Source: Anaerolineales bacterium
GTDB taxonomy: Bacteria > Chloroflexota > Anaerolineae > Anaerolineales > Villigracilaceae
Assembly: GCA_049514195.1 (NCBI GenBank)
Contig: JBEKVG010000001.1
Location: 1-27,612 of the forward strand
Length of the DNA: 27,612 nucleotides
Reading direction: 5' to 3'
A program made the position numbers and the translations under genes. Below the pieces are notes generated by a model, which searched no databases, was not told the DNA's origin, and saw only the letters and a program-made list of their open reading frames with translations. Each line of letters starts with the position of its first letter. The first letter of the stretch is position 1. Shown here piece after piece: positions 3,508-16,966 of the stretch.

Positions 3508-4851
3508 TTACAGGACAAGCCCTCCGATAAACTCTCTTAACACGGAATCGACCGGAACAATCGTATCATCGGGAAATGGGAAGATGGATTGGAGCAAAGC
3601 CTCCACGCGTGCTGCCCGGGTGTATGCATCCTGTCGGAGCGGGTCCTCCTTATATTCTCGTGACCATTCTTCGAAATAGTCTATTAACTTCGGCTGGTAT
3701 ATCGACAACTCATACGGCATTCCACTGTTGACAATAAAATCGGCTGAAGAAATATATGGCAGGATATTCCCCAGCTCACCCGACCTAACATAATGCCAAT
3801 GGGTCAATGTTTGGCCATAATCCGCTGCCCGGCTTGTGGCATCCCGCAACATTCTGCGCATCAGCCGGATGTCCGTCCACCTGACATATTCCCCATCATT
3901 ACCCTTTAATTGCAAAAGCGGCTCAATATAGACCTTGAATGACGCATTTTTCACCCCCTCCGTAAGAGCGGGATACAAGCCATACAGGCTGTCAATCAGG
4001 ATTACATCATTTTTCGATAAGTGGGTTGGTGTAGTTTTTAAACTGCGCTTCCCCGTCTTAAAGTCATAATACGGCATCTGGATCTCTTTTCCATCAAGCA
4101 GCTCCTTGATATGATGGTTGATCAGCTCGATATCCAGAGCCTGGGGAGTTTCAAAATCGTAATCACCGAATTCATCTTTTGGATGCAGCTCCAGATCAAA
4201 GTAATAATTGTCCAGGTTTAGCTCCACAAAAGTAACCCCTTTTTCAGCCAACCTGAGAGCTATTTTCCGGGTTGTGGTGGTTTTACCTGAGCTGGAAGGG
4301 CCGGCAAAGATCGCCAGCTTAATCTCCCCTCTTTTTTCCAGAATGGAGTTTTCCACCACGGTTATATCGTGGTTATAGGTGGTTTCCGATTCCATGACGA
4401 TATCCGGCATCTCCCCGTTCGCTATTCTTTTATTCAGCCCTTCGATGGTATTTACACCATGATCCACGGCCCAATTCAGCACCGACCACAACTTTGCCCA
4501 GGGAATGTTTTCCTTGTTCTGTTCTACAGTGGATTTCCCCTGCAGCCTGCGCCGGTTTCTCTCATCCCGGTAAAGAATATAGGCTTTGGCAACCTTCGCG
4601 TGGCCATTTTCGATCAAGACCTTTTCAACCACATCCTGGATTTCCTCAACAGAGGGTACTTTATCCGATCCAAATTGCTTTTCCAACAGAGAAACCACTT
4701 GGTCGCTTAATTTCTGAGAGGTGGCTTTGTCCCTTCCGCCAACCGCGACGGCCGCCCGATAAATGGCATTCGTGATCCTTTCCTGCGTAAAGGGTACTAC
4801 CCGTCCATCACGCTTTGTCACACGCTCAATTTTCGCCTTTGGCGCATTCAT
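3508..4851 (-). CDS. ATP-cone domain fused to uridine kinase/phosphoribulokinase-family P-loop kinase, ~447 aa
   Basis: N-terminal ATP cone (VTKRDGRVVPF..ERITNAI..VEEIQDVVEKVLIENGHAKVAKAYILYR). Walker A GPSSSGKTT, LDNYY, DFETPQALD, YDFKTGKR, RLMRRMLRD. Start 4851 has GGAG 7 nt upstream; 4857 is an alternative. Confidence 0.85.
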   Translation of the reverse strand: MNAPKAKIERVTKRDGRVVPFTQERITNAIYRAAVAVGGRDKATSQKLSDQVVSLLEKQFGSDKVPSVEEIQDVVEKVLIENGHAKVAKAYILYRDERNRRRLQGKSTVEQNKENIPWAKLWSVLNWAVDHGVNTIEGLNKRIANGEMPDIVMESETTYNHDITVVENSILEKRGEIKLAIFAGPSSSGKTTTTRKIALRLAEKGVTFVELNLDNYYFDLELHPKDEFGDYDFETPQALDIELINHHIKELLDGKEIQMPYYDFKTGKRSLKTTPTHLSKNDVILIDSLYGLYPALTEGVKNASFKVYIEPLLQLKGNDGEYVRWTDIRLMRRMLRDATSRAADYGQTLTHWHYVRSGELGNILPYISSADFIVNSGMPYELSIYQPKLIDYFEEWSREYKEDPLRQDAYTRAARVEALLQSIFPFPDDTIVPVDSVLREFIGGLVL

Positions 4852-4922
4852 AGTCATCTCCATTTCCTGATCGATCCCAGGCCAGCGCTTTCTGAAATAA
4901 CCAACCAGAAACACCCATGTAA

Positions 4923-5169: not shown

Positions 5170-5336
5170 AAAATCGCGACCTGCCCTGCGTGCTAAGTAG
5201 CATCCAGCCGTCACAGCTCCTGCGGCTGACACGATATCGTGCCCGTTAGGGTAGTCAGCGGCTCATAGCCTGGTAGCGCTGACGCTGCTCACGGCTTTGG
5301 GCGGGTTGTATAGGCGGACGGGAGGTGTGTGATTTT
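5170..5336 (+). ncRNA. Putative structured ncRNA, 6S RNA-like rod (167 nt)
   Basis: End-to-end pairing AAAATC/GATTTT, ACCT/AGGT, CCC/GGG, then an irregular central region, then AGCCGT/ACGGCT and CAGC/GCTG. G-U wobbles in the closing stem favour the + strand, but the strand is not certain. Length and architecture fit 6S RNA. No covariance search run. Confidence 0.45.
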
Positions 5337-5727: not shown

Positions 5728-5734
5728 GCTTAGG

Positions 5735-5805
5735 CTGGGGGCAAAGGATTCGAACCTCTATTGACTGATCCAGAGTCAGTTGTCCTGCCATTGGACGAGC
5801 CCCCA
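5735..5805 (-). tRNA. trnQ: tRNA-Gln (anticodon CTG), CCA not encoded
   Basis: TGGGGGC/GCCCCCA acceptor stem, GTCC/GGAC D-stem, ACTGA-CTCTGGA-TCAGT anticodon arm, GGTTCGAATCC T-arm. The 3' end reads G-CCT. Confidence 0.96.
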
Positions 5806-7616: not shown

Positions 7617-8411
7617 ATGCATCAACGTAGTAATCTCTTCTGGGGCATCGTTCTCATCCTTTTGGCAGCCTTGCTCTTCTTCAACCAACAGGGCTGGCTG
7701 AAAGGAAATGTATTCGATTATTTCTTGCCGGCAATTGTCATCCTGTTTGGAATCTGGTTATTGATCGGCGCCTTTGGTAAAGGGCGGTCAGGCGTGAGTG
7801 GACAAAACCTTTCCATTCCCCTGGAAAGCGCCCATAGCGCCCGGATCAAACTGGATCATGGAGCTGGCCGTCTGAACATTCGAGCAGGGGCCACTTCCAC
7901 CGAAGTGCTCAACGGCGTTTTCGGTGCAGAAGTGGATTATAAGTCACAGCTCCAGGCAGACCAACTCCAGGTCAAAGTACGCAACTCCCCACATTTCTGG
8001 GGCTGGTTCCCGGGCGAAAGCCTAGACTGGGATATCCGCCTCAATGGCGATGTTCCGCTGAATTTAAAAATCGACAGTGGTGCAAGCGCCTCGACCCTCG
8101 ACCTGACGGATCTGAAAGTAGTTGAGCTCGACATCAACACCGGTGCAAGCAGCACGGAGGTCAGCCTGCCTGCTAGCGCTGGCAATACTCTGGTGGATAT
8201 CGATTCAGGCGCCGCTTCTGTGAACATCAACGTCCCAACCGGAGTGGCAGCCCGCATCAAGATCAAGAGCGGTATCGCCTCAGTCAATGTCGACTCAAAT
8301 CGCTTCCCGCGCCTGGATGGTGGTCTCTACCAATCCACAGATTTTGCGACTGCAGCCAACCGCGCTGATATTACCATCGACACAGGCGTCGGCTCGGTAG
8401 CTATTAAGTGA
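7617..8411 (+). CDS. LiaF-like protein: N-terminal TM hairpin plus C-terminal repetitive beta-solenoid domain, 264 aa
   Basis: LFWGIVLILLAALLFFNQQGWL..FLPAIVILFGIWLL, followed by six (I/L)x(I/L)(D/N/K)(S/T/H)G(A/I/V)(S/G/A) repeats. AAAGGAG RBS. Confidence 0.75.
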   Translation: MHQRSNLFWGIVLILLAALLFFNQQGWLKGNVFDYFLPAIVILFGIWLLIGAFGKGRSGVSGQNLSIPLESAHSARIKLDHGAGRLNIRAGATSTEVLNGVFGAEVDYKSQLQADQLQVKVRNSPHFWGWFPGESLDWDIRLNGDVPLNLKIDSGASASTLDLTDLKVVELDINTGASSTEVSLPASAGNTLVDIDSGAASVNINVPTGVAARIKIKSGIASVNVDSNRFPRLDGGLYQSTDFATAANRADITIDTGVGSVAIK

Positions 8412-10151: not shown

Positions 10152-10766
10152 ATGAGTAACAGCCAGACTGAAATCTCCATCCAGGCTTTGCGCAACAGAG
10201 ATCGCCGCGAGTTCGCCCGGTTAGTGGATGCATATTCAGGCCCACTCCACCGTTTGGCACTCAAAATGCTTGGCAACGAACCAGATGCCGATGATGTGCT
10301 ACAGAATACATTCCTGAAGGGATTCCAACACATGAACGAATTTGAGGGCCGTTCAAGCCTTTCTACCTGGTTATACCGGATCGCATCCAACGAAGCTTTG
10401 ATGATGCTACGAAAACGGCGTCCGGAAATCACCTTTACCGACACTGTACCGGAGGATGAAGATGACAATAATTTCGATCCAGTCCAATTCACCGATTGGT
10501 GCTGCCTGCCGGAGGAAGAATTTCTCACAACCGAATCGCAGGCTGCTCTGGACCGCGCCGTACAACACCTTCCAGAGAAGCTGCGTATCGTCTTTATCCT
10601 GCGTGATATCGAAAATCTGTCCATCCAGGAGACCAGCCAGACCCTCGGCTTGAGCGAGACAGCCGTCAAAACCCGCCTGCTACGTGCCCGTTTACGTTTG
10701 CGGGAGGAATTGAGCAGCTATTTCGGCAAACGGCTCATAAAAGGAGCAAAAGATGAGCGAAGATGA
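10152..10766 (+). CDS. ECF-family RNA polymerase sigma factor, 204 aa
   Basis: Region 2 (DADDVLQNTFLKGF..FEGRSSLSTWLYRIASN) and region 4 (LPEKLRIVFILRDIENLSIQETSQTLGLSETAVKTRLLRAR). Confidence 0.95.
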   Translation: MSNSQTEISIQALRNRDRREFARLVDAYSGPLHRLALKMLGNEPDADDVLQNTFLKGFQHMNEFEGRSSLSTWLYRIASNEALMMLRKRRPEITFTDTVPEDEDDNNFDPVQFTDWCCLPEEEFLTTESQAALDRAVQHLPEKLRIVFILRDIENLSIQETSQTLGLSETAVKTRLLRARLRLREELSSYFGKRLIKGAKDERR

Positions 10767-11016: not shown

Positions 11017-11601
11017 ATGGAAGAACAGCAGAACTCCATGCAAAACCCGAAATCGCGTGCACCTCTCTTCCTCACCTTGATTGCAGCCGGGATTTTCCTG
11101 GTTGGCGCGCTGCTCACCCCGCTACTAGTGCGCAGCCAGGAAACCGCTCTCCAAAGTTCCGGGCTCATCCGACCGCCTGCAGTCATAGATCAGGCCGCTC
11201 CACAACTGACCTTGACCGACTTGAAGGGTCAGCCGGTTTCCCTGGCAAATTACCAGGGTAAAGTGGTCCTGGTCAACAACTGGGCCACTTGGTGTCCGCC
11301 TTGCAAGACCGAAATGCCCGACTTGCAGGCTTACTACCAGGCCCACAGCGCCCAAGGCTTTGTTATCATCGCCATCGAATCGGGCGACACCGCCGCTACC
11401 GTCAGCGCTTTTGTCAGGCAGCTTGGGTTGACTTTCCCAGTCTGGCTCGATCCGCAGGGTTGGGCAGCGGGAGACTTCAAGAACTTGAATTTTCCCAGTT
11501 CCTATCTGGTTGACCGGCAGGGCCGCCTGCGCATGAGTTGGACCGGGCCGATTAACCAGGCAACCCTTGAAAAATATGTCACCCCTCTTTTGGAGAAATG
11601 A
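11017..11601 (+). CDS. Membrane-anchored TlpA/ResA-family thiol-disulfide oxidoreductase, 194 aa
   Basis: N-terminal TM helix; APQLTLTDLKGQPVSL..GKVVLVNNWATWCPPCKTEMP; FPSSYLVDRQG. Confidence 0.92.
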   Translation: MEEQQNSMQNPKSRAPLFLTLIAAGIFLVGALLTPLLVRSQETALQSSGLIRPPAVIDQAAPQLTLTDLKGQPVSLANYQGKVVLVNNWATWCPPCKTEMPDLQAYYQAHSAQGFVIIAIESGDTAATVSAFVRQLGLTFPVWLDPQGWAAGDFKNLNFPSSYLVDRQGRLRMSWTGPINQATLEKYVTPLLEK

Positions 11602-12126: not shown

Positions 12127-13599
12127 TTACTTCCCCGCCCGGATATGACTGGCTGCATCCGAACAGGTACAGGCGGTAACCGTTTGGTCTCCACGCGTCA
12201 GGGTTCCCTGATAAGCTGCATTACCGTCATGAGCGATCCAGCCTTCCAGGTTGAATGGAATGACACCATCGGCCGGTATCCATTCGCCATTGTATTTACG
12301 AGCAATATGAACGTGCGTCCCGGTCGCTTCTCCGCCCTCGCAGGAGGGGAAACCGAGCGGGTCGCCTTTCTTCAATATCTGCCCAACCTCGGCGCGTCCA
12401 ACAGTCGCAATGTGTAAATAGAGAATATCCCAGCCGGTGCGCTCATCCCCGTCACCATCGAGATCCTCCATTACGACACCCGTCTCCGAACGGGCGACGA
12501 TTCCATCTGCCATTGCCACCACCGGATTATTGGAGGGATTACAACCACTGACCGGTGGTGCCAGATCGAGCGCAGACCAGGGCGGGAGTTCTGCCGTCCC
12601 CCAGCCAGCATGAGGACCACCGGTGAGACTCCACGTCTCTCCATCCTTAAAAGGAAGACGCAGGGCGGGTTGTTGTAGGCTGACCGGAATATGCGGCAGG
12701 TCCACATTTGCAGCCCAGGGGTCACCGAACAGATTACGGTAGGTACGCGCCAGACCTTCCGGTCCGATTGCGAGTGTGTACTGGGGAATCGGCGTACTCA
12801 GGGAAAAATAATACTGGAACGCCACTGTGGCGGAGGTCTGCCAGGGATCGGGGCGTTCCAGGCTGCCATCGGGATGTTGGAGCTCGGTCAGGCTGCCGGT
12901 ACGCCAATCATAGTAACCGACATTCAGCATGTTCGCCGCCCAGATAAGCTGCAAATAAAGGCCTGCATAGTTATAATCCACATAGCCAAGTGGATAATCA
13001 CCCACTGGCTGGACAGGTTGGGAAAGGGCGCCGGTCTGGTAATCCAGAAGAGCCAGCAGGACTCGCGGACTGATGCTGTAGTCGAGCGCTACCATATCCA
13101 CAAGTTCCGCCCCAGAGTGATTGGCATTCGCTGCATAGGCTTCGTACTCCTTCAGCCAGCCAGGATGGCTTGCAACAAATGCACCAGTATCGAAACCGAT
13201 GGCAGAAGGACCATTGACAAACTGGCTATCCGGCAAAATCTGGAGGGGCGTCCCCCAGAAAGGCAAATAGTAGATTGGAATTTTCATCGGCATGCCAGCT
13301 GGCATGGTGGTGACGTCCTTGGGGATCTGCGGGTTGGCGGCTTGGATTTCGGCAATAGATGTATTGAAATGGGCCGCCAGTGCCGGCAGTGTGTCGCCGG
13401 TCTGAGCCACGTAATCCACCAGTTCGCCAGGGTTATACTTCGGGCGCGTTGGCAGCGGCGTGGCGGTCGGGCCCGCCGTAGGTGTCGGGGTAGGTGGAAC
13501 GAGAGTCAAGTCCCCAGCACCCTGCGGCACACAGGCTACCAGAGAAAGAGCGAGCATTAACAGGTAAAACCGCTTGTATTGGAACACGGAAAAGGTCAT
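12127..13599 (-). CDS. Lipoprotein with LysM domain and LasA-like M23 metallopeptidase (copy 1), 490 aa
   Basis: Lipobox LVAC; LysM YVAQTGDTLPALAAHF; GGPH-x14-D, YLH, SCEGGEATGTHVH. ATGA overlap with copy 2. Confidence 0.88.
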   Translation of the reverse strand: MTFSVFQYKRFYLLMLALSLVACVPQGAGDLTLVPPTPTPTAGPTATPLPTRPKYNPGELVDYVAQTGDTLPALAAHFNTSIAEIQAANPQIPKDVTTMPAGMPMKIPIYYLPFWGTPLQILPDSQFVNGPSAIGFDTGAFVASHPGWLKEYEAYAANANHSGAELVDMVALDYSISPRVLLALLDYQTGALSQPVQPVGDYPLGYVDYNYAGLYLQLIWAANMLNVGYYDWRTGSLTELQHPDGSLERPDPWQTSATVAFQYYFSLSTPIPQYTLAIGPEGLARTYRNLFGDPWAANVDLPHIPVSLQQPALRLPFKDGETWSLTGGPHAGWGTAELPPWSALDLAPPVSGCNPSNNPVVAMADGIVARSETGVVMEDLDGDGDERTGWDILYLHIATVGRAEVGQILKKGDPLGFPSCEGGEATGTHVHIARKYNGEWIPADGVIPFNLEGWIAHDGNAAYQGTLTRGDQTVTACTCSDAASHIRAGK

Positions 13600-15269
13600 T
13601 CACCCGACTGACGGATGATCTGCGACTCCTTGACGCCAGTCTGGTTGGCAATGATCGTCTGGTCACCCTTGGTGAGCGTACCCAGGTAAGGAGCACTCCC
13701 TTCATGCGCTATCCAACCGCTCAAATCAAAAGGCAAGGGACCGCCAGCAGCCACCCACTCGCCATTGTACTTCCGGGCAATGTGCAAGTTCGTTCCGGTG
13801 GCTTCGCCGCCTTCGCAGGATGGATGCCCAATGCGAGCCCCGGCATTCACCCACGTACCCGCAGGGATGCGGTCTTTGGTGGCAATGTGCTGGTAAATCA
13901 CCACCCAGCCAGTCTGCTCGTAACCATCCCCATCCAGGTCAAGTACCACATAACTGCTTTCAGAACGCACGATCTGCCCGGGGGCGATGGCTATTGCCCA
14001 GGCATCGGACACGCTGCAACCTGTGACAGCCGCGGCCGGCGCAAAGTCCAGGGCGCCCCAGGCGCTTTCCGCTTCCCAGGCCGGGTGCGGACCGCCAGTG
14101 AAAGCCCACAAGGCACCAACTTCAAAGGGAAGAGTGAAAGTCGGCTGGTTCAGGTTTGCTGGAAAAAGCGGTCCGAGTTCGTCGGCGCGTTCCCATGGAT
14201 CACCGAACATGCTCTTATAAAGGGATAAAAAACCAGTATCCGGGTTAATTGCTTGCAGCCAATCGGCATAGTTGAGGTGCTTGGAGAAAAAATATTGCAA
14301 GGCAACGCTGCCTGCATTCAAGCTCGGCGCGATGCGCAGGGTTGTCCCATCCGGAAAAGTCAGCGAATCTAAATTCCCGGCACGCCAGCCGTAATATCCG
14401 GTCAAGAGATCCTGAATAACCAAGCGCATTGGCTGGTACAGTGTTGGGGTAGCCGGGTTGTAAGATGGATCGACATAGCCAAACAAATGACTTTCGTCCA
14501 GACCCGATTTCGGTTGTCCCTGCACCCAGCCAGTGTAATACTGGATAAGCGCCAGCAAAAGGCGCGGACTGATGGAACTTCCCACGGAGATGATCTTTAC
14601 AGCCTCCGCTCCGGAAATAGTGCCAACCGGGTTATGAAAATCTGAAAAGGTGCTCAATTTTCCCCCGGCGGAATCCACGTAAGATTCGATATCAAAACCA
14701 ACCGCGCTGGGGGAATCCACCAGTTCGCTATCCGGGATGATGCGCTGAGAAGGGGTAGTGGGAGTTTGGGATGGAGGCTCAGGCAGGAACAGAAGCGTAC
14801 CGGGGTTGATAAAGCCGGTGGCAGGCAGGGGCGCCGGCGATGTAATCTCCGAAGTTGGGACCCCAAAATGAATAGCAACCACGTTCAGGCTGTCACCCGA
14901 TTGCGAAGTGTAGGAGATGGTGTTCGCCGGTACATCGGTGGTCACGACTGGTGTTGCCGTACTGGAGGGTACGGTGACAGTTGCAGGTTGATCCGTGGCC
15001 AGCGGTGGCAGGGGGGAAGCAGTGAGAATTGGCGATGTGGGTGTTGTTGATACAAGCTCCGGTAGAACTGTTCGGCTGTTTATGGGGCCTGTCCCGGCCT
15101 GCCCCGGTACTTTCGGGGTACTTCCGGGACCTGTCCCGGTTATTTCGGGAGTGTGCGTCAGGTACGGTTCATAATTTCCCCACAGGTCGCTGCCGCAGGC
15201 AGACAAGAGCAAAACAATGACAAGAAACAATGCGAGTGTTTTGCTCGGATGCAACGAAGTAGGTTTCAT
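13596..15269 (-). CDS. Lipoprotein with LysM domain and LasA-like M23 domain (copy 2, HxH changed to NxH), 557 aa
   Basis: Lipobox LSAC; long Pro/Thr linker; LysM YTSQSGDSLNVVAIHF; GGPH-x12-D, YQH, SCEGGEATGTNLH. Confidence 0.88.
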   Translation of the reverse strand: MKPTSLHPSKTLALFLVIVLLLSACGSDLWGNYEPYLTHTPEITGTGPGSTPKVPGQAGTGPINSRTVLPELVSTTPTSPILTASPLPPLATDQPATVTVPSSTATPVVTTDVPANTISYTSQSGDSLNVVAIHFGVPTSEITSPAPLPATGFINPGTLLFLPEPPSQTPTTPSQRIIPDSELVDSPSAVGFDIESYVDSAGGKLSTFSDFHNPVGTISGAEAVKIISVGSSISPRLLLALIQYYTGWVQGQPKSGLDESHLFGYVDPSYNPATPTLYQPMRLVIQDLLTGYYGWRAGNLDSLTFPDGTTLRIAPSLNAGSVALQYFFSKHLNYADWLQAINPDTGFLSLYKSMFGDPWERADELGPLFPANLNQPTFTLPFEVGALWAFTGGPHPAWEAESAWGALDFAPAAAVTGCSVSDAWAIAIAPGQIVRSESSYVVLDLDGDGYEQTGWVVIYQHIATKDRIPAGTWVNAGARIGHPSCEGGEATGTNLHIARKYNGEWVAAGGPLPFDLSGWIAHEGSAPYLGTLTKGDQTIIANQTGVKESQIIRQSGE

Positions 15270-15409
15270 CAGCGTGAGATTATACCTTAGCTATTGGAGA
15301 GCAGAGATTAGAGGGTGGTAAGGAAACATCGCCAGCAAAACAGATTGATTTGAATACAAGGGTGGGAGATCCTGTCGCCAACGCAGAGCACTCTCTCGGG
15401 GTTAATAGT

Positions 15410-16966
15410 TCACCTTTGAATTTGATTGGCTGTACTGTTTCCATCAAAGTTTTGGATCACCACGCCGTTGCGCGTGAGTGTGCCAACATATTCCTCGCCC
15501 TTCCCGGCAGATATCCAGCCGCTCAGGTTGAATGGGACCGGACCCAGCGCAGACATCCACTCGCCGTTGAACTTTCGCGCCAGGTGGACGTGTATGCCAG
15601 TGGCTTCCCCTCCCTCGCAAGACGGATGCCCCACCCAGTCGCCGGCGTGCAGCATCGTGCCAGGCTGGACCCGGTCACGGCTCTCGATATGCATGTAGAG
15701 GATGACCCAGCCGGTGCCCTCGTTGCCATCCTCGTCCAGATCCAGGATCACCTCGCCGTTACCAGTACGCGTCACCAAGCCATCCGCCACTGCCGTGACC
15801 CAGGCATCGGACTCATCATCGCATTGGGTATCGCCAGGAGGGGCGAAATCCAGCGCCCCATAGGGAGTGCCGTCAAGCCAAGCCAGGTGCGGGCCCCCGG
15901 TGAAGAACCAGATCTCGCCCGTGCCAAACGGCAGGCTCAGCATAGGCTGGACCAGATGGGCTGGGACGAGCGGTTCGATCGTTAGGTCAAACGGGTAGCC
16001 AAAGAGCTTGTAGTAAGTATCAAAGAATCCGCCCGGCGATACATCCCGTAACCAGGTGGAATAATTATCCAGTTGGGCGAAGAAATTCTGCACACCGGCT
16101 GTCCCGGCGTTGATCGTTGGAGCAATCGGGACAACGGAACCATCCGCCAACACCCAACTGGTGACAGCATTTGAGCGCCAGCGGTAGTAGCCGCCGTTAA
16201 GTTGGATGGTCGCCCACTCCAACTGACGGTACAGGCCGTGATACCAGGCATCCGAGAAGCCAAAAGGCTGTTCATCCAGAGCTGGGTCTGGATTGGTCTT
16301 TGTCAGCCAGCCGGAACGATATTCTAATAGCGCCAGCAGGAGGCGCGGGTTGATCGAGGATTCCTTTGCAGCAAGTTCCACGACCTGCGCAGCGGTCAAG
16401 GTTACTCCATTTACAGCCTGAGTGTAATTCGCCAGGTGACCTGCCTTGCTGCGGATAAAGGCGTCCACATCCGTCTGGGTACTGAGTGGCCCGTATACCA
16501 GTTCGGAATCAGGGATTATTTTATCGGCTGGGCCAGTTGGCTGAGGGGATACGACCGGGATGGTCAGCGTCTGTCCCACTTCCAACGTATTCTCGTCCGT
16601 GATGTTGTTGGCCTGAGCCAGCGTCTGAACCCCGATGCTGTACTTTTGCGCTATCGCGCTGAGCATGTCTCCAGATTGGACAACATAGGTCTGCGGGCTG
16701 CGCAGTGTCCCAATCTGATAATGCGCGGCATCCGGCGTAGGCGTCAAGATGGGCGACCCCGGAATCCGCGTTGGCGGGATGCTGTAGGATAAGGTTGGGG
16801 TGCCTGAGGCCGCCATGGTCGTATCTGGCTGGCCCGAAACCCAGATGGAAACGGGAGTAATCGATAGATTGGATGGTTTGGAGGTCCCGCACGCGCTCAA
16901 ACCTATATCCAGCACCGCCGCAACCATTATGCAGAGAGCAACCATCCAGAGATTTCGTGGAAACAT
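15410..16966 (-). CDS. Lipoprotein with LysM domain and LasA-like M23 metallopeptidase (copy 3), 518 aa
   Basis: Lipobox LSAC; LysM YVVQSGDMLSAIAQKY..ANNI..LEVGQTLTIP; GGPH-x12-D, YMH, SCEGGEATGIHVH. Confidence 0.88.
   Translation of the reverse strand: MFPRNLWMVALCIMVAAVLDIGLSACGTSKPSNLSITPVSIWVSGQPDTTMAASGTPTLSYSIPPTRIPGSPILTPTPDAAHYQIGTLRSPQTYVVQSGDMLSAIAQKYSIGVQTLAQANNITDENTLEVGQTLTIPVVSPQPTGPADKIIPDSELVYGPLSTQTDVDAFIRSKAGHLANYTQAVNGVTLTAAQVVELAAKESSINPRLLLALLEYRSGWLTKTNPDPALDEQPFGFSDAWYHGLYRQLEWATIQLNGGYYRWRSNAVTSWVLADGSVVPIAPTINAGTAGVQNFFAQLDNYSTWLRDVSPGGFFDTYYKLFGYPFDLTIEPLVPAHLVQPMLSLPFGTGEIWFFTGGPHLAWLDGTPYGALDFAPPGDTQCDDESDAWVTAVADGLVTRTGNGEVILDLDEDGNEGTGWVILYMHIESRDRVQPGTMLHAGDWVGHPSCEGGEATGIHVHLARKFNGEWMSALGPVPFNLSGWISAGKGEEYVGTLTRNGVVIQNFDGNSTANQIQR

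What the first reader, a model, noticed from the sequence alone, without database searches (positions are those of the whole stretch)
12127..16966. Tandem triplet of membrane-anchored LysM plus LasA/beta-lytic-type (M23A) peptidases
Seen: three co-oriented paralogues, each lipobox + Pro/Thr linker + LysM + middle domain + M23 domain. The first two Zn ligands are spaced H-x12/14-D rather than HxxxD, and each has LPF..G..W..TGGPH and SCEGGEATGxHxH.ARK.NG. Established: Pseudomonas LasA (M23A, staphylolysin) has a similar long His-Asp spacing and CEGGSSTGPHLHF, and its pro-region has an SINPKVLLTL-like segment, mirrored here by SISPRVLLAL/SINPRLLLAL. LasA-type enzymes are known as secreted proteobacterial proteases that cut Gly-rich cross-bridges. 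Inference: this is a cell-tethered, glycan-binding LasA-like system in a probable Anaerolineae genome, used either to remodel its own wall or to lyse neighbours on contact.
Basis: partly seen in the sequence, partly recalled or inferred. Interest (0 to 1): 0.75.

Follow-up and report, generated by a model that had tools for sequence, protein, structure and literature searches.

The report
Tandem membrane-anchored LysM LasA-type peptidases
Three neighbouring genes of a peat-soil Anaerolineae bacterium encode membrane-tethered cell-wall-cutting enzymes of the LasA type, known so far from secreted Pseudomonas-like proteases; their "pro-peptide" part looks like a lysozyme-fold domain, and the middle copy has probably lost its activity.

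Summary
Three co-oriented minus-strand paralogues (518, 557 and 490 aa, about 41% identical) each carry a lipobox, a Pro/Thr linker, a LysM (degenerate in copy 2), a ~190-aa middle domain and a C-terminal M23 domain.

- The catalytic domain's nearest solved structures are the three M23A enzymes (Z 17.6-18.2, against 11.9 or less for M23B).
- All LasA active-site residues map one to one.
- The middle domain is homologous to the LasA-type propeptide (hhalign 98.6%, E 6e-16).

New here:
- The propeptide-like domain models as a lysozyme/GH73-like fold and is predicted to pack on the catalytic domain without touching the zinc site.
- Copy 2 has Asn at the LasA His120 position, and Gln where copies 1 and 3 and their relatives have an acidic residue.
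- The family occurs in 57 of 151 genomes of the class, mostly as one copy. The triplication is specific to one lineage.

JGI already labels many homologues "LasA protease", and this scan noted the same triplet in two other genomes, so this is an uncharacterised variant of a known kind. Own-wall remodelling is the likelier role. Whether the enzyme is cleaved from its anchor is untested.

The parts
15410..16966 (-). P1 gene (518 aa): lipoprotein, LysM, LasA-type pro-domain, M23A domain with a complete active site
16889..16966 (-). P1 signal peptide with lipobox LSAC (Cys26)
   Evidence: the model shows helix 4-23; Lgt and LspA are in the genome
16550..16696 (-). P1 LysM domain (residues 91-139)
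   Evidence: Pfam LysM 56 bits; VIA Z 9.5, rmsd 1.0 to solved LysM domains
15953..16525 (-). P1 pro-domain (residues 148-338). It is homologous to the LasA propeptide and has a lysozyme/GH73-like fold. Glu215 lies at 16322-16324.
   Evidence: homology; fold; Glu census
15413..15952 (-). P1 M23A catalytic domain (residues 339-518). H360, D373, H426, H459, H461 and Y493 correspond to LasA H23, D36, H81, H120, H122 and Y151. A DxDxDG insertion lies at 409-414.
13596..15269 (-). P2 gene (557 aa): same architecture, but with a degenerate LysM, Gln243 at the pro-domain acidic position (14541-14543) and Asn494 at the LasA His120 position (13788-13790)
12127..13599 (-). P3 gene (490 aa): lipobox LVAC, LysM (26 bits), pro-domain with Asp186, M23A domain with H-x14-D and an intact HVH

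Best explanation
The three genes are an old lineage-specific triplication of a gene that many Anaerolineae carry once. Each encodes a lipoprotein tethered to the cytoplasmic membrane by its N-terminal Cys. A long Pro/Thr linker then carries three folded parts into the wall.

- A LysM glycan binder.
- A ~190-residue domain homologous to the propeptide of LasA-type (M23A) proteases. It has a lysozyme-like fold.
- A LasA/beta-lytic-type zinc endopeptidase domain.

P1 and P3 have every LasA catalytic residue. They are predicted to cut peptide cross-links of peptidoglycan. P2 keeps the zinc ligands but has Asn at the His120 position, whose substitution inactivates LasA. It also has Gln at a conserved acidic position of the pro-domain. 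It is most likely a non-catalytic partner.

The pro-domain packs tightly on the catalytic domain. By analogy with LasA, beta-lytic protease and pseudoalterin, it is needed for folding and may keep the enzyme latent.

Shown: architecture, homologies, fold, residue mapping, distribution.
Inferred: the substrate is the cell's own wall (remodelling or septum processing in filaments); the state of latency or activation.
For: - M23A fold with a gap of 6 Z units over M23B.
- Top PDB sequence hits are pseudoalterin, BLP and LasA.
- One-to-one mapping of the LasA residues.
- Pro-domain homology.
- Lysozyme-like fold of the pro-domain: essentially all VIA rows down to about Z 4.3 are glycosidases or lytic transglycosylases, best Z 7.8. 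AFDB clusters give E 1e-7 and TM 0.55-0.68 to GH73-like proteins.
- Predicted pro/catalytic interface: ipSAE 0.91 against 0.00 for the best of 3 controls. In calibration, 51 of 78 solved complexes and 2 of 108 mismatched pairs reached the mark.
- The pro-domain is as conserved as the catalytic domain (72-75% against 76-77%).
- Lipoboxes plus Lgt and LspA.
- For an own-wall role: the gene is single-copy and present in all or none of the sampled genomes in most GTDB families, in 57 of 151 class genomes. The neighbours are housekeeping genes, with no immunity or secretion genes.
- M23A pro-forms are inactive, cannot self-mature, and need the propeptide for folding. The reference list of the same paper also gives the title of the His-120 study (PMC8715609).
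Against: - No activity, processing or expression data exist, and no RNA run was listed.
- Pfam M23 scores are below the cut-off (26-28 bits; none for P2).
- An HMM built from 25 gammaproteobacterial M23A domains did not separate these proteins from the genome's own M23B proteins.
- The predicted interface contains none of the active-site residues, so latency by capping of the zinc is not supported.
- Characterised M23A enzymes are secreted bacteriolytic proteases. This would favour a role against neighbours.
Confidence: 0.6

Rival explanations
1. Released weapon. As in LasA, an extracellular protease cuts between the pro-domain and the catalytic domain. The lipid anchor, LysM and pro-domain stay on the producer. 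A free ~19-kDa M23A enzyme diffuses away and lyses neighbouring bacteria.
For: All characterised M23A enzymes are secreted pro-enzymes matured by other proteases, and they are bacteriolytic (PMC8715609; PMC9662197). The anchor and LysM lie upstream of the pro-domain.
Against: The junction (residues 329-351) is modelled with pLDDT 86-96, and residues 330-339 lie in the interface, so it is not a loose linker. LysM is strongly conserved, which would be odd for a part that is discarded. The pattern of one conserved copy per genome in whole families looks like housekeeping. No immunity gene is adjacent.
Confidence: 0.2
2. Two-headed hydrolase. The pro-domain is not a propeptide here but a working lysozyme-family module that cleaves glycan. 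This would make the proteins phi29 gp13-like enzymes that combine a glycosidase and an endopeptidase.
For: The pro-domain has a lysozyme/GH73-like fold. The longest structural alignments are to the N-terminal domains of phage P68 and Andhra tail lysins (149-152 residues). An acidic residue at the end of a helix (Glu215) is kept in 108 of 115 P1-like and 111 of 115 P3-like proteins and is replaced by Gln in 102 of 110 P2-like proteins. It lies outside the interdomain interface. Pfam GH73 was found in only 1 of 61 genomes of the class.
Against: Z is under 8, and no sequence model of GH73 or SLT matches. The equivalence of Glu215 to the catalytic Glu rests on approximate offsets only. Asp variants occur, and LasA itself has Val there. 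No glycosidase activity is reported for any M23A propeptide in the papers searched.
Confidence: 0.15
3. Ordinary LysM-M23B lipoproteins of the NlpD, DipM or MepM kind, with a chance resemblance to LasA.
For: JGI names some homologues MepM/NlpD. NCBIfam hits to NlpD, DipM and MepM exist, but only over the LysM. hhalign to the genome's own M23B proteins gives 96% probability.
Against: Structure, the H-x12-D spacing, the full-length match to mature M23A including the C-terminal 35 residues, and the homologous pro-domain all point to M23A. The genome's four M23B proteins score 100-118 bits on Pfam M23, against 26-28 bits here.
Confidence: 0.03

Closest known systems
LasA (staphylolysin) precursor of Pseudomonas aeruginosa, MEROPS M23A
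   Same: The layout is propeptide plus catalytic domain, collinear over residues 151-507 against LasA 58-408. The spacing is H-x12-D. H23, D36, H81, C111, H120, H122 and Y151 are all conserved in P1 and P3. The propeptide is homologous, including the SINP(K/R)-LL-L helix.
   Different: These proteins have a lipobox, a Pro/Thr linker and a LysM upstream of the propeptide. They carry a DxDxDG insertion where LasA has the Cys65 strand, and the partner Cys is elsewhere. Identity is 20-24%. The phylum is Chloroflexota rather than Gammaproteobacteria. Secretion and maturation are unknown.
Pseudoalterin (6ik4) and beta-lytic protease (8af1)
   Same: Pseudoalterin is the best sequence match in the PDB (46 bits, E 3e-11). 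Both match the whole mature enzyme at Z 18.1 and 17.6.
   Different: The pro-region of the Achromobacter BLP precursor was not aligned by Foldseek; only residues 200-369 were. Both are secreted and soluble, with no LysM.
Phage tail-tip lysins of the phi29 gp13, P68 and Andhra type (lysozyme-like N-domain plus M23 C-domain)
   Same: The domain order is the same: a lysozyme-fold domain followed by an M23 domain. Their N-domains give the longest structural alignments to the pro-domain (149-152 residues, Z 6.3-7.4). A published tree places gp13 next to M23A (PMC9662197).
   Different: There is no detectable sequence similarity. The gp13 M23 domain matches only at Z 8.3. gp13 has H-x7-D. The two domains were not aligned together in one superposition.
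Degenerate LytM-domain factors (EnvC, NlpD) and the Csd1-Csd2 pair
   Same: Like them, P2 is an M23 paralogue with an incomplete catalytic set, encoded beside intact paralogues.
   Different: P2 keeps all three zinc ligands. No partner is known, and a regulatory role is only an inference.

Membership tests
MEROPS M23A (LasA / beta-lytic type) | Long H(x)nD motif (x12 in LasA) instead of HxxxD | tested here: met
   x12 in P1 and P2, x14 in P3. 115 of 120 P1-like proteins have x12. The LasA x12 spacing is stated in PMC9662197.
MEROPS M23A (LasA / beta-lytic type) | HxH motif with both histidines | tested here: met
   P1 has HVH and P3 has HVH. Not met in P2, which has NLH (Asn494). 48 of 115 P2-like homologues also have Asn.
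MEROPS M23A (LasA / beta-lytic type) | Fold closer to M23A than to M23B structures, including the C-terminal extension | tested here: met
   VIA Z 18.2, 18.1 and 17.6 (160-162 aligned residues, 338-518), against 11.9 or less for M23B. Foldseek E 1e-10 to 1e-11 against 3.5e-7 or weaker.
MEROPS M23A (LasA / beta-lytic type) | N-terminal propeptide of the LasA type | tested here: met
   hhalign Prob 98.6%, E 5.8e-16, 161 columns against pro-regions alone. HMM 25-36 bits.
MEROPS M23A (LasA / beta-lytic type) | Sequence models separate it from M23B | tested here: inconclusive
   An HMM of 25 gammaproteobacterial M23A domains scores 17-25 bits here and 22-34 bits on the genome's own M23B proteins. 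hhalign gives E 1.8e-11 to M23A and 3.4e-9 to M23B. No MEROPS models were available.
MEROPS M23A (LasA / beta-lytic type) | Zinc-dependent cleavage of Gly-rich or other cross-bridges; maturation by another protease | not testable with these tools
   Needs enzyme assays and N-terminal sequencing.
Pfam Peptidase_M23 (PF01551) | Score at or above the gathering cut-off of 28.7 bits | tested here: not met
   P1 26.2 bits, P3 28.1 bits, P2 no hit. In the six-frame genome search, the P3 region reached 31.1 bits.
LysM (PF01476) | Pfam score above the cut-off and the LysM fold | tested here: met
   P1 56.1 bits and P3 25.9 bits against a cut-off of 20.9. Z 9.5, rmsd 1.0. P2 gets no hit, so the feature is not met for P2.
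Bacterial lipoproteins | Lipobox [LVI][ASTVI][GAS]C after a signal helix, and Lgt/LspA in the genome | tested here: met
   LSAC, LSAC and LVAC. Lgt 210 bits and LspA 118 bits. Lipidation itself was not tested.
Lysozyme-like superfamily (GH73/GH23-like) for the pro-domain | Lysozyme-like fold | tested here: met
   Essentially all VIA rows down to about Z 4.3 have this fold, with Z 4.2-7.8. AFDB clusters give E 1e-7 to 1e-5 and TM 0.55-0.68, several of them named GH73-like. Every Z is below 8, so this is moderate evidence.
Lysozyme-like superfamily (GH73/GH23-like) for the pro-domain | Catalytic Glu in the canonical place; sequence-model membership | tested here: inconclusive
   Glu215 is conserved at the end of a helix, but no residue-level superposition was available. 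There is no Pfam GH73 or SLT hit, no PDB profile hit, and no hhalign hit to one GH73 protein.

The most novel reading that the evidence does not exclude
The LasA-type 'propeptide' descends from the lysozyme-like head of a two-domain wall hydrolase of the phage gp13 kind. In the Anaerolineae proteins it would be kept as a working glycan-binding or glycan-cutting module, not discarded. The tandem set would then be two active two-headed enzymes plus one doubly disabled paralogue (Glu to Gln, His to Asn) that regulates or scaffolds them.
Probability: 0.2. Interest if true: 0.75.

Novelty: new variant of a known kind. Interest (0 to 1): 0.5.

Why it matters
M23A peptidases have been studied as secreted bacteriolytic proteases of Proteobacteria, and they are of interest as anti-staphylococcal enzymes. 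This work shows a large, conserved branch in Anaerolineae. The pro-domain defines 1,810 clusters at 50% identity.

In this branch the enzyme is built as a membrane-tethered, LysM-bearing wall protein. That suggests the LasA type began as, or can serve as, a housekeeping autolysin.

The lysozyme-like fold of the propeptide is not mentioned in the papers I could search. If it holds, it gives a structural explanation for why M23A enzymes need their propeptide. It also links them to two-domain phage lysins.

The naturally disabled middle paralogue offers a ready test of the His120 and Glu positions.

Tried and rejected
- An HMM built from 25 gammaproteobacterial M23A mature domains did not discriminate M23A from M23B. 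The set was selected by one exact motif and is too narrow.
- Pfam (E up to 10) on 64 pro-domains gave nothing consistent: one member hit Glucosaminidase at E 0.11.
- A PDB profile search with the pro-domain gave only a spurious ribosomal protein. The single-sequence PDB search gave only amylase noise.
- hhalign of the pro-domain against the single GH73 protein found in the class gave no match.
- The ESM Atlas search by features was uninformative.
- BFVD gave no significant row, although its top rows share the glycosidase theme.
- Grande 2007 and Gustin 1996 on LasA are not held. The His120 result is therefore cited only from its title in the reference list of PMC8715609.
- No RNA run was listed, and read laying was not used.
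- The promoter and terminator scan showed nothing above chance for promoters.
- No conserved neighbours were found outside the window's own GTDB family, so I rejected the idea of a conserved partner gene such as an immunity gene, an activating protease, or the adjacent redoxin.
- The idea that Glu215 caps the zinc as a 'switch' was rejected, because it is not in the predicted interface.
Full report
**Observation.** The window holds three consecutive minus-strand ORFs: P1 at 16966..15410 (518 aa), P2 at 15269..13596 (557 aa) and P3 at 13599..12127 (490 aa). They align end to end at 38-41% identity with about 120 invariant columns. The P2 stop overlaps the P3 start, and P1 and P2 are 140 nt apart.

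Each protein begins with a signal helix and a lipobox: LSAC, LSAC and LVAC. The genome encodes Lgt and LspA. A Pro/Thr-rich linker follows; in the model of P1, residues 22-51 have pLDDT below 50.

Pfam finds LysM in P1 (56 bits) and P3 (26 bits) but not in P2, whose aligned segment keeps only the outline of the motif. The His-Asp spacing is x12, x12 and x14. P2 reads NLH.

**Is it M23A?** Pfam's M23 model scores only 26-28 bits for P1 and P3 and nothing for P2. The genome's four ordinary M23B proteins, all with HxGxD, score 100-118 bits.

By sequence, the best solved relatives of the catalytic part are pseudoalterin (46 bits, E 3e-11), beta-lytic protease and LasA. All three alignments start at the mature N-terminus.

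An AlphaFold model of P1 (pLDDT 87, pTM 0.86) was compared with the PDB.
- LasA, pseudoalterin and BLP give Z 18.2, 18.1 and 17.6. They align 160-162 residues and cover 338-518.
- The best M23B gives Z 11.9 with about 120 aligned residues, ending near 483.
- Foldseek ranks them the same way.

Aligned with a LasA orthologue fetched from Pseudomonas paraeruginosa (L040), the residues map as follows:

| P1 | LasA |
|---|---|
| H360 | H23 |
| D373 | D36 |
| H426 | H81 |
| C450 | C111 |
| H459 | H120 |
| H461 | H122 |
| Y493 | Y151 |

One test failed to discriminate. An HMM of 25 gammaproteobacterial M23A domains scores these proteins no better than the genome's M23B proteins. hhalign prefers M23A only modestly, at E 1.8e-11 against 3.4e-9. 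Membership therefore rests on fold, motif spacing, full-length coverage and the propeptide.

**The middle domain.**
- BLASTP of P1 against 30 gammaproteobacterial precursors gives collinear alignments through both the pro-region and the mature region.
- A profile of the Chloroflexi middle domain hits the gammaproteobacterial pro-regions on their own at 25-36 bits.
- hhalign gives 98.6% probability, E 5.8e-16, over 161 of 193 columns.
- Foldseek's best Swiss-Prot hits are the two LasA precursors, aligning residues 151-507 with 58-408.

**A new point: the fold of the pro-domain.** The domain was modelled alone (pLDDT 93) and compared with 48,161 PDB representatives. Essentially all rows down to about Z 4.3 are lysozyme-superfamily enzymes: GH73 LytB (Z 7.8), the N-domains of phage Andhra and P68 tail lysins, MltF, g-type lysozyme, FlgJ and others. 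Unrelated proteins appear only below Z 4.3.

AFDB clusters give E 1e-7 to 1e-5 and TM 0.55-0.68, and several of those proteins are named GH73-like. The PDB and viral Foldseek lists show the same theme without significance. No sequence model detects the relationship. I rate the fold assignment likely, at about 0.85, and any catalytic competence as open.

An acidic residue at the end of helix 207-218 (Glu215) varies as follows:

| Group | Residue at the Glu215 position |
|---|---|
| P1-like | Glu in 108 of 115 |
| P3-like | Glu in 111 of 115 |
| Single-copy orthologues | Glu in 3 of 3 |
| Gammaproteobacterial precursors | Glu in 11 of 16 |
| P2-like | Gln in 102 of 110 |
| P3 of this window | Asp |
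| LasA itself | Val |

**How the domains sit.** Pro-domain and catalytic domain were folded as two chains with zinc. The score was ipSAE 0.91, against 0.00 for the best of three controls. In calibration, 51 of 78 solved complexes and 2 of 108 mismatched pairs reached the mark.

The interface uses pro-domain residues 153-163, 201-204, 250-265 and 330-338. On the catalytic side it uses 363-368, 400-407, 415-419 and 465-472. It contains none of the six active-site residues, and not Glu215.

So the model supports a tight two-domain body. It does not show a zinc-capping latency switch. Published work says that M23A pro-forms are inactive, cannot mature by themselves, and need the propeptide to fold (PMC8715609).

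**Paralogue 2.** Asn494 (13788-13790) sits at the LasA His120 position. A study listed in PMC8715609 reports that a His120 substitution blocks LasA activity; I could not read that paper itself. Among 115 P2-like homologues, 48 have Asn, including the 16 closest. The change is therefore inherited, not an error. Together with the Gln in the pro-domain and the degenerate LysM, P2 looks like a non-catalytic paralogue.

**Distribution and history.** Many are named 'LasA protease' by JGI and 'LysM peptidoglycan-binding domain-containing protein [Anaerolineales bacterium]' by NCBI.

In a sample of the class, 57 of 151 genomes have the gene, in most GTDB families either in all sampled genomes or in none, and mostly as one copy. 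A tree rooted on the gammaproteobacterial precursors puts single-copy orthologues of other families outside a group P1+(P2+P3). Each paralogue clade is supported at 98-100%.

The order P1-P2-P3, followed by the redoxin gene, is kept in a complete genome of the same family. No neighbour is conserved in other families.

The pro-domain is as conserved as the catalytic domain (72-75% against 76-77%). A profile of it finds 1,810 clusters at 50% identity among 1.84 billion representatives. The DNA occurs in peat and soil metagenomes, and no RNA run was listed.

**Function.** Four things favour action on the producer's own wall:
- the lipid tether;
- the conserved LysM;
- the housekeeping-like distribution;
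- the absence of immunity or secretion genes nearby.

A LasA-like release of a free lytic domain is the main rival. Because the anchor and LysM lie upstream of the pro-domain, the two readings differ by a single cleavage event that only experiment can settle.

**Novelty.** I found no paper on such proteins in Chloroflexota, or on the fold of an M23A propeptide. Automatic annotation already calls them LasA protease, and this scan noted the same triplet on two other genomes. I class it as a new variant of a known kind.

Noticed in passing
window 15725-15742 (P1 residues 409-414); P2 residues 444-449; P3 residues 379-384: A DxDxDG motif (DLDEDG or DLDGDG), the pattern of a calcium-binding loop, is invariant in the three paralogues. 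It sits in an insertion that the gammaproteobacterial M23A enzymes lack, next to the predicted pro-domain interface (415-419).
   Followed up: partly
window 7617-8411 (+), 10152-10766 (+), 11017-11601 (+): A LiaF-like protein (cell-wall-stress response), an ECF sigma factor and a membrane-anchored AhpC/TlpA-like redoxin lie just downstream of the triplet. The redoxin, the cNMP-binding gene and the LiaF-like gene stay next to the triplet in a complete genome of the same family (L055).
   Followed up: partly
class-level genome sample: The Pfam GH73 glucosaminidase family was found in only 1 of 61 genomes of the class searched, although it rings in 5 of 14 control genomes.
   Followed up: no
window 5733-5805 (-): tRNA-Gln (CTG). 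It is the only Rfam match at gathering threshold in the window. The 6S-like RNA proposed by a first-reader note at 5170-5336 got no Rfam match.
   Followed up: partly
window 3508-4914 (-): An ATP-cone domain fused to a PRK/uridine-kinase domain (Pfam 87 and 69 bits).
   Followed up: no
ESM Atlas clusters (rows 6, 9, 10): Structural look-alikes of the pro-domain occur as a ~189-aa stand-alone protein in clusters labelled mostly viral. They also occur fused to a PcsB-type coiled coil (Actinomycetota) or to ricin-type lectin domains (Saccharimonadota).
   Followed up: no
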